Positions 30,090-32,609 of a DNA stretch of 64,000 nt are shown here, piece by piece; positions within the stretch are counted from its first letter, which is position 1; each line of letters begins with the position of its first letter. The notes under the pieces were generated by a model that saw only the letters and a list, made by a program, of their open reading frames with translations, was not told where the DNA came from and ran no database searches. Position numbers and translations under genes: made by a program. The stretch is from Promethearchaeota archaeon. Its GTDB lineage: Archaea > Asgardarchaeota > Heimdallarchaeia > Hodarchaeales > Hodarchaeaceae. Location of the stretch: assembly GCA_048938105.1 (NCBI GenBank), contig JBHLMN010000007.1, positions 160,001-224,000 on the forward strand. Reading direction: 5' to 3'.

Positions 30090-30260
30090 TTAGTAGCTAA
30101 AATGTTGTTCATCTAATTTTTGACACACATTATCAACTTTCACACGAGTATGGCTAACAGGAACAACTATATGACCATGTTCTGCTAATCCAATGGTAAG
30201 AGCTTCTCCTATTCCACTAGATCCACCGAATATAACTATAACATTCTCATTGGTTTTCAA
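30090..30260 (-). pseudogene. Truncated short-chain dehydrogenase (N-terminal Rossmann fragment)
   Basis: VIVIFGGSSGIGEALTIGLAEHGHIVV, then a stop after about 55 aa. No SDR remainder follows. Confidence 0.6.
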
Positions 30261-30626
30261 ATACAATCCTCCAATAAATTGTGCTTCAAAACACAAAATA
30301 GATGATAAGATTTTTCTTCATTGATATTGAATCCTTTGCTGTGATAATTTCCATCTTCTTTGCTTTATTCAACCATTCTTCTATTTCTTCTCTAATAAAG
30401 GGCCAAGATTCGCTCAATATGAAAACCTTTATGAATTCTAGATTAATGTTTCACTTTCTACTTCTCAATTAGCTATAATTTCACATGTTAATCTGTTCCA
30501 GATCAAAATATAGATAAAATATGCCAAATGATATGGGAGCTCTATAAAAATAATAAACATAATCTTCGCTTAGAAATATTCCTCTCGGAAATCCAAAAAT
30601 AAATATCCTATTTATGTGATAAAATT

Positions 30627-32345
30627 ATGAGATCAGCCAATTCTGACGAAGCTACATCTTCTAAAGATTTTATTCGAAAAATGATTTCAGAAGATGTTAA
30701 AAACAATAAAAATAATGGCCGAGTCCATACTCGATTCCCTCCTGAACCCAATGGTTGGTTACACATTGGTCATGCGAAATCAATTCATCTCAATTTTAGT
30801 ATTGCAAGTGAATTCAATGGATTATGCAATTTACGGTTTGATGACACGGATCCTGCTAAAGAAAGCATGGAATATGTAGAGGCAATTAAAAAAGATATTC
30901 AGTGGCTCGGGTTCGATTGGGAAGATAGACTCTATTTTGCATCGGATTATTTTGAACAATTATATCAATTTGCTATAGAATTAATTAAAACTGGAAAGGC
31001 TTATGTTTGTGATTTAAGTGTAGAAGAAATTAAAGCTCAAAGGGGAACATCAGATGAGCCAGGGAAAGAAAGTCCATATCGTAACCGATCAGTAAAAGAA
31101 AATCTTGATCTATTTGAAAAGATGCGTAAGGGGGAGTTTAAGGATGGTTCCCGCGTATTGAGGGCAAAAATAGACATGAAATCTCCTAATATGTTAATGC
31201 GTGACCCAATAATGTACCGAATAAAGAGGGAACCGCATTATAGAACAGGGGACAAGTGGGTCATATATCCCAGTTATGATTATACTCATGGTCAATCAGA
31301 CGCCATCGAAGGAATTACTCATTCAATCTGCTCATTAGAATTTGAAACACATAGACCTCTATATAATTGGTATAGGGACCAACTCCTTTCTTTAAACATG
31401 CTTAAATACTGTCCAGAACAAATTGAATTTTCACGACTAAACTTAACATTTACGGTTATGAGTAAACGACGTTTATTAGAATTAGTTGAAAATAGGCAAG
31501 TATCAGGATGGGATGATCCTCGAATGCCCACACTTGCGGGTTTACGTAGACGTGGTTTTCCTCCAGAAGCAATCAGAAATTTTTTAGCTAAAGTCGGAAT
31601 ATCAAAAAGAGAGAATTACATAGATGTAGGCCTTTTAGAAGCCTGCGTCCGTGAAGAAATGGATAAAAAATGCGATCGTGTAATGGCTGTACTGCATCCC
31701 TTAAAGATTGTGATTCAGAATTATCCAGAGGATAAGGTTGAAGAACTAGATGCCCCTAATCATCCCAAAAATCCAGATAGAGGTTCACGGAAAATACCAT
31801 TTTCACGAGTACTATACATTGAACATGGCGATTTTCTTGAAGAACCTCCAAAGAAATTCTATCGACTTGCGCCTGGAAGAGAGGTTCGACTTCGATATGC
31901 ATATTATATAAAATGTATTAATGTAATTAAAGATGAAAAATCGGGGGAGATAATAGAATTGCATGCAACATTTGATCCTGAAACCAAAGGAGGATTTGCT
32001 CCAGACGGGCGAAAAGTAAAAGCTACTCTCCATTGGGTCTCAGCTGAACATGCAATTAAGGCAAAAGCACGTCTGTACGACAGACTTTTCATTAAAGAGA
32101 ATCCTCTGGAAGATGCAGACTTTTCAAAAAGTTTAAATCCCAAATCATTAGAGAAGGTATCATGTTATGTGGAACCGAGTCTTCAGACCGCAAAACCAGG
32201 GATGACGTATCAATTCGAACGTTTAGGATATTTTTGTGTCGATTCAGTGGATACAACACCCGAACAACTAGTTTTTAATCGCACGATAACTTTACGGGAT
32301 CCTTGGGCCAAGATTAAGAGATCTCAAAAAGTAAAAACAACATGA
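30627..32345 (+). CDS. glnS: Glutaminyl-tRNA synthetase (bacterial-type)
   Basis: [10 protein letters not shown]..., [50 protein letters not shown]. Collinear with E. coli GlnRS as I recall it. Confidence 0.92.
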
Positions 32346-32379
32346 CACATTTCTTGACAAGAGAATAAAAAAGAAATGA

Positions 32380-32451
32380 CAGCCCCGCCCAGAATCGAAC
32401 TGGGGTTATCGGATTCAGAGTCCGAAGTGATAACCGCTACACCACGGGGCT
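32380..32451 (-). tRNA. tRNA-Gln(CUG)
   Basis: AGCCCCG acceptor stem, TCGGA-CT[CTG]AA-TCCGA anticodon arm, CCCAG-TTCGATT-CTGGG T-arm, G73, no encoded CCA. Confidence 0.96.
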
Positions 32452-32502
32452 TGTTTTGAATTTTTAAGTTTTTATATTTAAGTGAGAAAGAGAAGAAAGA
32501 AG

Positions 32503-32609
32503 CAGCCCCGCCCGGATTTGAACCGAGGTCGAGAGGGTCAAAGCCTCTTATGCTAGTCCACATTGCCTAATTGTGGATGATAACCACAATGTGTCTACAC
32601 CACGGGGCT
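32503..32609 (-). tRNA. tRNA-Gln(UUG) with ~34-nt D-loop insertion (putative non-canonical intron)
   Basis: AGCCCCG acceptor stem, AGAGG-CT[TTG]AC-CCTCT anticodon arm, CTCGG-TTCAAAT-CCGGG T-arm. Extra sequence lies at about 32561-32594. Confidence 0.9.

What the first reader, a model, noticed from the sequence alone, without database searches (positions are those of the whole stretch)
30627..32609. Bacterial-type GlnRS converging on both tRNA-Gln genes
Seen: a full-length glnS ends 35 bp from tRNA-Gln(CUG), followed by tRNA-Gln(UUG). Known: archaea classically lack GlnRS and make Gln-tRNA through a non-discriminating GluRS plus GatDE. The protein has the short bacterial N-terminus and lacks the eukaryotic N-terminal extension. 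Inference: it was horizontally acquired and settled beside its cognate tRNAs, giving direct glutaminylation in an archaeon.
Basis: partly seen in the sequence, partly recalled or inferred. Interest (0 to 1): 0.7.

Follow-up and report, generated by a model that had tools for sequence, protein, structure and literature searches.

The report
Archaeal GlnRS with its own tRNAs
A Heimdall-group (Hodarchaeales) Asgard archaeon carries a bacterial-type glutaminyl-tRNA synthetase next to two duplicated glutamine tRNAs retuned to that enzyme's recognition rules, while keeping the normal archaeal glutamine tRNAs and the indirect GluRS/GatDE route, which shows how the barrier thought to keep this enzyme out of archaea may have been crossed.

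Summary
Window 30627-32345(+) encodes a true GlnRS of 572 aa. It converges on tRNA-Gln(CUG) at 32380-32451(-), after a 34-nt gap, and on tRNA-Gln(UUG) at 32503-32609(-). The UUG gene carries a 34-nt D-loop intron, and ARAGORN and Rfam miss it.

The host is a Hodarchaeales/Heimdallarchaeia MAG. Contamination is excluded: the same gene and layout occur in many relatives, including closed chromosomes.

- The enzyme is not a one-off. It occurs in three families of the class and was not found in about 155 genomes from other families of the phylum.
- It does not replace the indirect route. gatD, gatE and archaeal GluRS are intact here, and GatE is present in 37 of 40 relatives.
- The genome has four tRNA-Gln genes. 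The glnS-linked pair has G73 and A37, both bacterial GlnRS identity elements. An unlinked pair keeps the archaeal A73 and G37.
- Each linked gene is closest to its unlinked isoacceptor, so native tRNAs were duplicated and changed in parallel.

The trees favour a bacterial donor, but an AU test does not reject the alternative. The likely mechanism is two parallel routes to Gln-tRNA. GlnRS in this group is already annotated and mentioned in a preprint. I found no description of the dual tRNA sets.

The parts
30627..32345 (+). glnS: bacterial-type glutaminyl-tRNA synthetase, 572 aa, with no N- or C-terminal appended domain
   Evidence: It scores 723 bits against TIGR00440 (cut-off 426). The Pfam domains PF00749, PF03950 and PF20974 are all present, and bacterial GlnRS structures match at E of about 1e-200. 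The HIGH and VMSKR motifs, the Gln-pocket residues and the anticodon-reading residues are conserved. Asp235 is replaced by Thr and Leu136 by Ser.
32346..32379 (.). 34-nt spacer between the glnS stop codon and the 3' end of tRNA-Gln(CUG), in a convergent arrangement
   Evidence: Sequence read directly.
32380..32451 (-). tRNA-Gln(CUG), set B: A1-U72, G2-C71, C3-G70, G10, A37 and discriminator G73 (base 32380)
   Evidence: ARAGORN calls it and Rfam scores it at 63 bits. Model R1 scores it at 98 bits. Orthologues in relatives show compensatory stem changes, while the 1-72 to 6-67 pairs and G73 never vary.
32503..32609 (-). tRNA-Gln(UUG), set B, interrupted: exon 1 at 32595-32609, intron at about 32561-32594, exon 2 at 32504-32560, G73 at 32503; A37
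   Evidence: ARAGORN and the Rfam gathering threshold both miss it (26.9 bits). Model R1 finds it full length at 72 bits. The exon junction AG|UGGAC follows from intron-less orthologues in G008, G009, G011, G014 and G019. The same intron is present in G003 and G020.
32561..32594 (-). 34-nt intron in the D-loop (after position 15, give or take 1) of tRNA-Gln(UUG)
   Evidence: Defined by comparison with intron-less orthologues. It folds as a hairpin. A simple scan did not find a strict hBHBh' motif, though the same scan also missed the canonical intron of the set A CUG gene.

Best explanation
**Shown**
- The window holds a functional-looking bacterial-type GlnRS. It became fixed in an ancestor of three Heimdallarchaeia families (Hodarchaeales and relatives).
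- The genome still has the indirect route: archaeal GluRS plus GatDE.
- In this genus the genome holds two kinds of tRNA-Gln.
- Set A is the native pair (CUG and UUG). It lies on other contigs and has A1-U72, A73 and G37.
- Set B is a second CUG and UUG pair beside glnS. It keeps the archaeal acceptor stem but has G73 and A37. Both are identity elements of bacterial GlnRS.

**Inferred**
- The enzyme most likely came from bacteria.
- Set B arose by duplication of the native genes, and each copy then made the same two changes.
- GlnRS charges set B directly with glutamine.
- GluRS and GatDE keep serving set A. GatDE may also repair any Glu-tRNA-Gln that forms.
- If so, the cell runs a direct and an indirect route to Gln-tRNA-Gln in parallel.
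- The retuned tRNA copies, together with the change at enzyme position 235, are how the incompatibility between a bacterial GlnRS and archaeal tRNA-Gln was overcome.
For: **The enzyme**
- It scores above the glnS cut-off, and the catalytic, glutamine-pocket and anticodon-reading residues are intact.
- GC3 is 25.5%, like the neighbouring genes.

**Clade-wide presence**
- It is over the cut-off in 24 of 40 relatives, including single-contig genomes.
- In the phylum survey of 200 genomes it is over the cut-off in 25 (G000 included). Without G000 the counts are f1 6/9, f3 16/21 and f4 2/3, and 0 in every other family scored.

**The indirect route is retained**
- gatE and gatD lie at G000:C11:14030-17287, and archaeal GluRS lies on C49.
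- GatE is over the cut-off in 37 of 40 relatives, including almost all of those with GlnRS; only G039 had no GatE match.

**Four tRNA-Gln genes**
- Two are in the window. The others are at C11:135862-135968 (CUG, intron at 37/38) and C18:49691-49795 (UUG, T-loop intron).
- The closed genomes G009 and G015 show the same four.

**Set B derives from set A**
- B_CUG is 79% identical to A_CUG, and B_UUG is 79% identical to A_UUG.
- B_CUG is 69% identical to B_UUG, and set B is 48-56% identical to tRNA-Gln of the nearest bacterial relatives.
- This implies parallel A73-to-G73 and G37-to-A37 changes in both copies.

**Identity rules**
- G73 and A37 belong to the E. coli GlnRS identity set: G73, U1-A72, G2-C71, G3-C70, G10, U34, U35, G36, A37, U38 (PMC9976931 Table 1; PMC1865053).
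- GatDE reads A1-U72 and the D-loop (PMC2330236).

**Set B is under selection**
- 97% of cells are paired, and 8 pairs show compensatory changes.
- A1-U72, G2-C71, C3-G70 and G73 never vary.

**Co-occurrence and enzyme change**
- In the genus, all 12 genomes with GlnRS have set B. Of the 9 without, 8 lack it, and the ninth has a set B gene at a contig end.
- Asp/Asn235 reads G3-C70 in E. coli (from my own recall of the structural literature). It is Thr or Ser in f1 and Val or Ile in most of f3/f4, and these tRNAs have C3-G70.
Against: - No biochemical or expression data exist. Which enzyme charges which tRNA is inferred from E. coli identity rules, which need not hold for this enzyme.
- Set B lacks two E. 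coli identity elements: it has C3-G70 instead of G3-C70, and A38 or C38 instead of U38.
- Families f3 and f4 have GlnRS, but their glnS-adjacent tRNA-Gln keeps A73. The closed f3 genome G027 has only two tRNA-Gln genes. G73 is therefore not required by every Heimdall GlnRS.
- A37 also occurs in a genome without GlnRS (G033).
- Co-absence of glnS and set B is partly confounded, because the two are usually adjacent on one contig.
- The donor direction is not settled (AU p = 0.22).
Confidence: 0.6

Rival explanations
1. The routes are redundant rather than partitioned. GlnRS, and GluRS with GatDE, each act on all four tRNA-Gln species. Set B is just extra gene dosage that happens to sit near glnS. 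G73 and A37 would then be neutral, or would serve another partner such as a modification enzyme or EF1A.
For: - The f3 and f4 lineages have GlnRS with A73 tRNA-Gln only.
- The closed f3 genome G027 has two tRNA-Gln genes in total.
- A37 also occurs in G033, which lacks GlnRS.
- Set B keeps A1-U72, the GatDE determinant (PMC2330236).
Against: - The same two substitutions arose in both duplicates, each of which is closest to its own isoacceptor.
- Both changed positions are bacterial GlnRS identity elements (PMC9976931).
- G73 never varies across the 13 set B genes from eight species in alignment A2.
- Set B was found only in genus genomes that also have glnS; the one exception, G020, carries its set B gene at a contig end.
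- E. coli and yeast GlnRS cannot charge archaeal tRNA-Gln (PMC2330236).
Confidence: 0.25
2. GlnRS of this type is native to the Heimdallarchaeia-eukaryote lineage and passed from a Heimdall-like archaeon into bacteria, rather than the reverse.
For: - The three families with GlnRS form a single weakly supported GlnRS clade (81/97).
- A tree with all 52 bacterial rows held as one clade, leaving Heimdall outside, is not rejected (AU p = 0.22).
- On the first data set the constrained tree even scored better than the quick tree.
- Heimdallarchaeia are the reported sister group of eukaryotes (10.1101/2024.07.04.601786).
Against: - The careful tree puts Heimdall inside a 96/96-supported clade with Desulfobacterota, Planctomycetota, Nitrospirota-like and similar bacteria.
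- That clade is one of many bacterial lineages. Eukaryotes plus giant viruses form a separate 100/98 clade.
- Heimdall GlnRS is 62-67% identical to those bacteria. f1 is only 54-61% identical to f3/f4.
- The other Heimdall families (f2, f5, f6, f7) and all other Asgard families surveyed had no match.
Confidence: 0.1
3. GlnRS has replaced the indirect route. GatDE and non-discriminating GluRS activity on tRNA-Gln would then be relics or repurposed. This is the reading implied by the first reader.
For: In bacteria, GlnRS normally goes with a discriminating GluRS (general knowledge).
Against: - gatE and gatD are full length with no internal stops. They score 549 and 482 bits, above their curated cut-offs.
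- GatE is retained in 37 of 40 relatives across families that have carried GlnRS for a long time.
- A native A73/G37 tRNA-Gln set is also retained.
Confidence: 0.04
4. The finding is an assembly or binning artefact: a bacterial contig or a chimeric join in the MAG, which has 7% estimated contamination.
For: The genome's estimated contamination is 7.25%.
Against: - The contig is 269 kb, with GC like the rest of the genome.
- glnS GC3 matches the neighbouring genes.
- The gene and its tRNA neighbours recur in at least ten relatives, including closed chromosomes of 4.94 Mb and 3.16 Mb.
- The adjacent tRNAs have the archaeal A1-U72 pair, and one has an archaeal-style intron.
Confidence: 0.01

Closest known systems
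Bacterial GlnRS (E. coli GlnS, PDB 1QTQ/1GTR; TIGR00440)
   Same: - The catalytic domain and two beta-barrel domains have the same architecture.
- It is 53-55% identical to E. coli GlnS and 62-67% identical to Desulfobacterota and Planctomycetota enzymes.
- The HIGH and VMSKR motifs are conserved.
- The Gln-pocket residues (R30, D66, Y211, C229, F233, Q255) are conserved.
- The anticodon-reading residues (R341, R402, R410, R412, Q517) are conserved.
   Different: - The host is an archaeon.
- The acceptor-stem reader Asp/Asn235 is Thr here.
- Leu136 is Ser in half of the genus.
- There is a 4-5 residue insert after position 245.
- The presumed substrates have A1-U72 and C3-G70 instead of U1-A72 and G3-C70.
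Archaeal indirect pathway: non-discriminating GluRS plus GatDE acting on tRNA-Gln with A1-U72 and A73
   Same: The genome has all of its parts (gluRS, gatD, gatE) and a matching tRNA-Gln pair with A1-U72, A73 and G37.
   Different: Here it coexists with a direct GlnRS and with a second tRNA-Gln pair whose discriminator and position 37 have been switched. Reviews describe archaea as lacking GlnRS altogether (PMC9499178, PMC8762117, PMC2330236).
Helicobacter pylori GluRS1/GluRS2 and similar cases where a duplicated synthetase co-evolved with tRNA-Gln
   Same: Two charging systems for the Glu/Gln tRNAs sit in one cell. Acceptor-stem elements separate their substrates (PMC2777447; PMC9976931).
   Different: In H. 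pylori the enzyme was duplicated and the tRNAs stayed single. Here the tRNAs were duplicated and retuned, and the second enzyme appears to be imported.
Deinococcus radiodurans GlnRS-YqeY fusion and eukaryotic GlnRS with a GatB-like N-terminal domain
   Same: All are GlnRS that needed extra tRNA-binding help. P0001's best NCBIfam hit is the GlnRS/YqeY fusion model (838 bits). The sister families f3 and f4 carry an appended N-terminal domain.
   Different: The enzyme in this window has no appended domain: profile positions 566-769 are unmatched. The f3/f4 extension is homologous to the N-terminal domain of archaeal GluRS (41% identity, E = 2e-23), not to YqeY or GatB.

Membership tests
GlnRS (glutamine--tRNA ligase, TIGR00440) | Full-length match above the curated equivalog cut-off | tested here: met
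   723.3 bits against a cut-off of 425.8, covering profile positions 1-524. The archaeal GluRS model scores only 370, below its own cut-off of 402.
GlnRS (glutamine--tRNA ligase, TIGR00440) | Class I signature motifs HIGH and KMSKS (VMSKR in GlnRS) | tested here: met
   Both HIGH and VMSKR are present in the alignment with E. coli GlnS.
GlnRS (glutamine--tRNA ligase, TIGR00440) | Glutamine-pocket residues (E. coli R30, D66, Y211, C229, F233, Q255) | tested here: met
   All six are conserved in the f1 Heimdall sequences wherever the position is aligned. R30 falls in a gap in 4 of the 12 rows.
GlnRS (glutamine--tRNA ligase, TIGR00440) | Anticodon (YUG) recognition residues R341, R402, R410, R412, Q517 | tested here: met
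   All are conserved in f1.
GlnRS (glutamine--tRNA ligase, TIGR00440) | Acceptor-stem reader Asp/Asn235 for G3-C70 | tested here: not met
   Thr in 11 and Ser in 1 of the 12 f1 sequences. Among 68 bacterial sequences it is Asn (33) or Asp (21). The tRNAs have C3-G70.
GlnRS (glutamine--tRNA ligase, TIGR00440) | Charges tRNA-Gln with glutamine | not testable with these tools
   Needs an aminoacylation assay.
GlnRS/YqeY fusion protein (NF011291) | C-terminal YqeY domain | tested here: not met
   The score of 837.9 exceeds the cut-off of 681, but only profile positions 2-565 of 769 match. The protein ends at residue 572.
Eukaryotic GlnRS | N-terminal GatB-like domain, and placement in the eukaryotic clade | tested here: not met
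   There is no N-terminal extension. Human GlnRS scores 472 bits against 672 for E. coli. Eukaryotes plus giant viruses form a separate 100/98 clade.
Substrate of bacterial-type GlnRS (E. coli tRNA-Gln identity set) | G73; a weak 1-72 pair; G2-C71; G10; U35; G36; A37 | tested here: met
   Both window tRNAs have G73, A1-U72, G2-C71, G10, U35, G36 and A37. The identity set is taken from PMC9976931 and PMC1865053.
Substrate of bacterial-type GlnRS (E. coli tRNA-Gln identity set) | G3-C70 and U38 | tested here: not met
   The tRNAs have C3-G70, and A38 (CUG) or C38 (UUG).
Canonical archaeal tRNA-Gln (GatDE substrate) | A1-U72 first pair | tested here: met
   All four tRNA-Gln genes of the genome begin AGCCCCG and end CGGGGCU.
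Canonical archaeal tRNA-Gln (GatDE substrate) | A73 discriminator (PMC9499178) | tested here: not met
   The window pair (set B) has G73. The unlinked pair (set A) has A73, as do the tRNA-Gln genes of families f2 and f5, which lack GlnRS.

The most novel reading that the evidence does not exclude
The cell holds two naturally orthogonal glutamine-charging systems. An imported GlnRS would act only on a duplicated, retuned tRNA-Gln pair (G73/A37). The ancestral GluRS and GatDE would act only on the native pair (A73/G37). This would be the first archaeon shown to use direct glutaminylation. It would also be a natural record of how a foreign synthetase is domesticated by evolving its own tRNAs. The sister families would show a second solution: fusing the N-terminal domain of archaeal GluRS onto the same enzyme.
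Probability: 0.35. Interest if true: 0.85.

Novelty: new variant of a known kind. Interest (0 to 1): 0.72.

Why it matters
Textbooks and recent reviews state that archaea lack GlnRS (PMC9499178, PMC8762117). They explain this by the incompatibility of archaeal tRNA-Gln with bacterial and eukaryotic GlnRS (PMC2330236, citing Tumbula 2000).

This locus is in the archaeal group reported as closest to eukaryotes. It shows the enzyme fixed for a long time and beside tRNA copies altered at exactly two bacterial identity positions. That turns the barrier hypothesis into a testable case:
- four tRNAs, two enzyme systems and two nucleotide swaps can all be assayed;
- it offers a candidate natural orthogonal synthetase/tRNA pair;
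- it bears on how eukaryote-like direct glutaminylation could coexist with the indirect route during a transition.

Tried and rejected
- **Contamination or a chimeric contig.** Rejected on synteny in closed relatives and on composition.
- **Co-transfer of bacterial tRNAs with glnS.** Rejected. Set B is 79% identical to the native isoacceptors and only 48-56% identical to tRNA-Gln of the nearest bacteria.
- **The ARAGORN call 'tRNA-Pyl(cta)' at G000:C11:135861-135970.** Rejected. It is tRNA-Gln(CUG) with a 37/38 intron, as comparison with intron-less orthologues shows.
- **A strict bulge-helix-bulge motif for the D-loop intron.** My simple scan found none. It also missed the canonical intron of set A CUG, so the scan is uninformative.
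- **A37 as a universal marker of lineages with GlnRS.** Rejected, because G033 lacks GlnRS but has A37.
- **The first quick tree.** It was sub-optimal: a constrained tree scored 38 lnL units better. I replaced it with a careful search that included real eukaryote sequences.
- **A homologue search seeded with a giant-virus GlnRS, meant to fetch cellular eukaryote sequences.** It returned only viral and metagenomic proteins. Eukaryote sequences came from the representative search instead, and one was verified as a plant protein.
- **Whether the GluRS discriminates.** No sequence rule exists for archaeal-type GluRS, so this was not assessed.
Full report
**1. Observation**

The ORF at 30627-32345(+) encodes 572 aa.
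- It carries the three Glu/Gln-synthetase Pfam domains.
- It scores 723.3 bits on TIGR00440 glnS (cut-off 425.8). It scores below the cut-off on archaeal GluRS models.
- It matches bacterial GlnRS structures at E of about 1e-200: 697 bits for 5BNZ and 672 for E. coli 1QTQ. Human GlnRS scores 472 bits and archaeal GluRS 195 bits.

ARAGORN and Rfam both find tRNA-Gln(CUG) at 32380-32451(-). This is 34 nt past the glnS stop codon, in convergent orientation.

The second tRNA is real, but both programs miss it.
- The sequence at 32503-32609(-) has the same acceptor stem and a UUG anticodon arm, and is 34 nt too long.
- Orthologous loci in five relatives carry an uninterrupted tRNA-Gln(UUG) at the same place. 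This fixes the exon junction (AG|UGGAC).
- The intron therefore lies in the D-loop after position 15, give or take one base.
- A covariance model built from these genes (R1) recovers the window gene full length at 72 bits.

**2. Host and integrity**

The window is G000:C42:160001-224000, on a 269-kb contig. The assembly is 5.85 Mb and 35% GC, with 99% estimated completeness and 7% estimated contamination.

The closest GlnRS proteins (70-90% identical) are named Hodarchaeota, Hodarchaeales or Heimdallarchaeota. Two come from closed chromosomes of 4.94 Mb and 3.16 Mb.

glnS has 37% GC and 25.5% GC3, like its neighbours. Those neighbours are ordinary genes: an S9 peptidase, a histidine kinase, an archaeal-type phosphoglycerate mutase and a radical-SAM protein.

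The glnS-tRNA-tRNA layout recurs in at least ten independent assemblies. A chimeric or contaminant origin is excluded.

**3. Distribution**

GlnRS is over the cut-off in 24 of 40 relatives. It occurs in families f1, f3 and f4 but not in f2 or f5.

In a survey of 200 genomes of the phylum, 25 (G000 included) have it. Without G000 the counts are:
- f1: 6 of 9;
- f3: 16 of 21;
- f4: 2 of 3;
- all other families scored, including f5, f6 and f7 of the same class: 0. About 155 of these genomes belong to other classes.

This is therefore an old trait of part of the Heimdallarchaeia, not an acquisition by this genome.

In the literature library I could search, reviews up to 2022 state that archaea lack GlnRS (PMC9499178, PMC8762117). 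One 2024 preprint mentions GlnRS next to cox genes in Hodarchaeales and Kariarchaeaceae in passing (10.1101/2024.07.04.601786). No paper treats its tRNAs.

**4. The indirect route is still there**

- gatE and gatD are adjacent at C11:14030-17287. They score 549 and 482 bits, both above their cut-offs, and have no internal stops.
- An archaeal GluRS lies on C49 and scores 480 bits.
- GatE is over the cut-off in 37 of 40 relatives, including almost all of those with GlnRS; only G039 had no GatE match.

**5. Two sets of tRNA-Gln**

Model R1 finds four tRNA-Gln genes in the genome.

| Set | Location | Isoacceptor | Intron | 1-72 pair | Pos. 37 | Pos. 73 |
|---|---|---|---|---|---|---|
| B | window 32380-32451(-) | CUG | none | A1-U72 | A37 | G73 |
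| B | window 32503-32609(-) | UUG | D-loop, 34 nt | A1-U72 | A37 | G73 |
| A | C11:135862-135968 | CUG | 37/38 | A1-U72 | G37 | A73 |
| A | C18:49691-49795 | UUG | T-loop | A1-U72 | G37 | A73 |

- ARAGORN miscalls the C11 gene as Pyl/cta.
- All four share the acceptor stem AGCCCCG/CGGGGCU.
- The closed genomes G009 and G015 have the same four. In G015, set B lies 117 kb from glnS.

After intron removal, the identities are:
- B_CUG to A_CUG: 79%;
- B_UUG to A_UUG: 79%;
- B_CUG to B_UUG: 69%;
- set B to tRNA-Gln of the nearest bacterial relatives: 48-56%. Those bacterial tRNAs have U1-A72 and GGGG acceptor stems.

Set B therefore arose by duplication of the native isoacceptors. A73-to-G73 and G37-to-A37 then occurred in both copies.

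Both positions belong to the experimentally defined E. coli GlnRS identity set: G73, U1-A72, G2-C71, G3-C70, G10, U34, U35, G36, A37, U38 (PMC9976931 Table 1; PMC1865053). GatDE reads A1-U72 and the D-loop (PMC2330236).

Across eight species, set B shows:
- 97% paired cells;
- eight pairs with compensatory changes;
- invariant A1-U72, G2-C71, C3-G70 and G73.

In the genus:
- all 12 genomes with GlnRS have set B;
- eight of the nine without it have only A73 or set A-like genes;
- the ninth (G020) has a set B gene at a contig end.

This co-occurrence is partly confounded by physical linkage. Families without GlnRS (f2, f5) have A73 throughout, and G37 in all but one gene, the UUG gene of G033, which has A37.

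**6. The enzyme side**

Catalytic, glutamine-pocket and anticodon-reading residues are conserved.

Position 235 is Asp or Asn in 54 of 68 bacterial sequences. At this position:
- f1 has Thr or Ser;
- f3/f4 have Val or Ile in eight of nine sequences and Asn in one.

The tRNAs have C3-G70. Leu136 is Ser in half of the genus, including this genome.

**7. Origin**

A careful maximum-likelihood tree used 91 rows under LG+G4, with archaeal GluRS as the outgroup. It included real eukaryote sequences (one verified as a plant protein), giant-virus sequences, and 50%-identity representatives. It gives:
- eukaryotes plus giant viruses as one clade (100/98);
- all bacterial-type sequences as the other clade (82/98);
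- inside the latter, a 96/96 clade joining all Heimdall sequences with Desulfobacterota, Planctomycetota, Nitrospirota and related bacteria. The Heimdall sequences are monophyletic within it at 81/97.

This favours one transfer from such bacteria into an ancestor of f1, f3 and f4.

However, a tree that keeps all 52 bacterial rows together is only 43 lnL units worse and is not rejected (AU p = 0.22). An earlier quick tree was unreliable. The direction of transfer is therefore likely but not proven.

**8. Mechanism proposed**

What is shown:
- an intact bacterial-type GlnRS;
- intact GluRS and GatDE;
- two tRNA-Gln sets that differ at positions 73 and 37;
- linkage and co-occurrence of set B with glnS.

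What is inferred:
- GlnRS charges set B directly;
- GluRS and GatDE serve set A, and GatDE may also clear any Glu-tRNA-Gln;
- the G73 and A37 changes, together with the change at enzyme position 235, overcame the reported inability of foreign GlnRS to use archaeal tRNA-Gln (PMC2330236).

How strictly the two systems are separated is unknown.

Families f3 and f4 appear to have taken another path. Their GlnRS carries an N-terminal domain of about 90 aa that is 41% identical (E = 2e-23) to the N-terminal domain of the archaeal GluRS. Their glnS-adjacent tRNA-Gln keeps A73.

**9. Verdict**

The enzyme itself is a new member of a known family in an unexpected host. That much is already annotated in public records and mentioned once in a preprint. 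I could not find the duplicated and retuned tRNA-Gln pair, or the long-term coexistence with GatDE, described anywhere. Together they make this a new variant of a known kind.

Noticed in passing
L139:455-2413(-) (G023), also L009, L010, L015, L140-L142, L156, L157: GlnRS of families f3 and f4 is about 650 aa long. A bacterial-type core is preceded by an N-terminal domain of about 90 aa. That domain is 41% identical (E = 2e-23) to the N-terminal domain of the Heimdall archaeal GluRS, so the protein is a chimera of the two paralogous synthetases.
   Followed up: partly
L156:1162-1236(-) (G035), L157:5008-5082(+) (G039), L158:139-213(+) (G031): tRNA-Gln-like genes lie within about 5 kb of glnS in one f3 genus. 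They have A1-U72, A73 and an encoded CCA, but the anticodon loop has only 6 nt (UUUAGG or UUUCGG). Compensatory stem changes between species argue against pseudogenes. Their decoding role is unknown.
   Followed up: partly
G000:C11:135861-135970 (outside the window): ARAGORN calls this gene tRNA-Pyl(cta) with an intron. Comparison with intron-less orthologues shows it is tRNA-Gln(CUG) with a 37/38 intron. ARAGORN finds only 35 tRNAs and no tRNA-Glu in this 5.85-Mb genome, which indicates many atypically interrupted tRNA genes.
   Followed up: yes
window 30090-30296 (-): A 68-aa ORF matches only the first 47 positions of the short-chain dehydrogenase profile. It looks like a truncated gene remnant in the 660-nt gap upstream of glnS.
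   Followed up: no
L027:3302-3373(-) and L030:4552-4625(-): In 2 of 77 bacterial relatives (one Anaerolineae, one Syntrophales) a bacterial tRNA-Gln(CUG) lies convergently downstream of glnS, as in the window. The gene-tRNA layout may therefore predate the transfer, although the archaeal tRNAs are not derived from bacterial ones.
   Followed up: partly
G024, G026, G028, G030, G036 (f4), G032, G018: These genomes show two GatE-like matches per genome: one at about 640 bits (about 530 in G018) and one at about 360-440 bits. Within the genus, GatE scores split into groups at about 550 and about 340 bits. This suggests divergent gatE paralogues whose role is unknown.
   Followed up: no
L145:2816-2922(-) (G017), L014:3275-3390(-) (G018): The set B tRNA-Gln(UUG) gene carries introns at different places in different species. 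G000, G003 and G020 have one after position 15. G017 has one later in the D-arm. G018 has one in the variable or T region. This shows rapid intron turnover.
   Followed up: no
L151 (G009:C1:3963582-3963689): The set A tRNA-Gln(CUG) of the closed genome G009 appears to have C at the normally invariant U33, unless its intron boundary differs.
   Followed up: no
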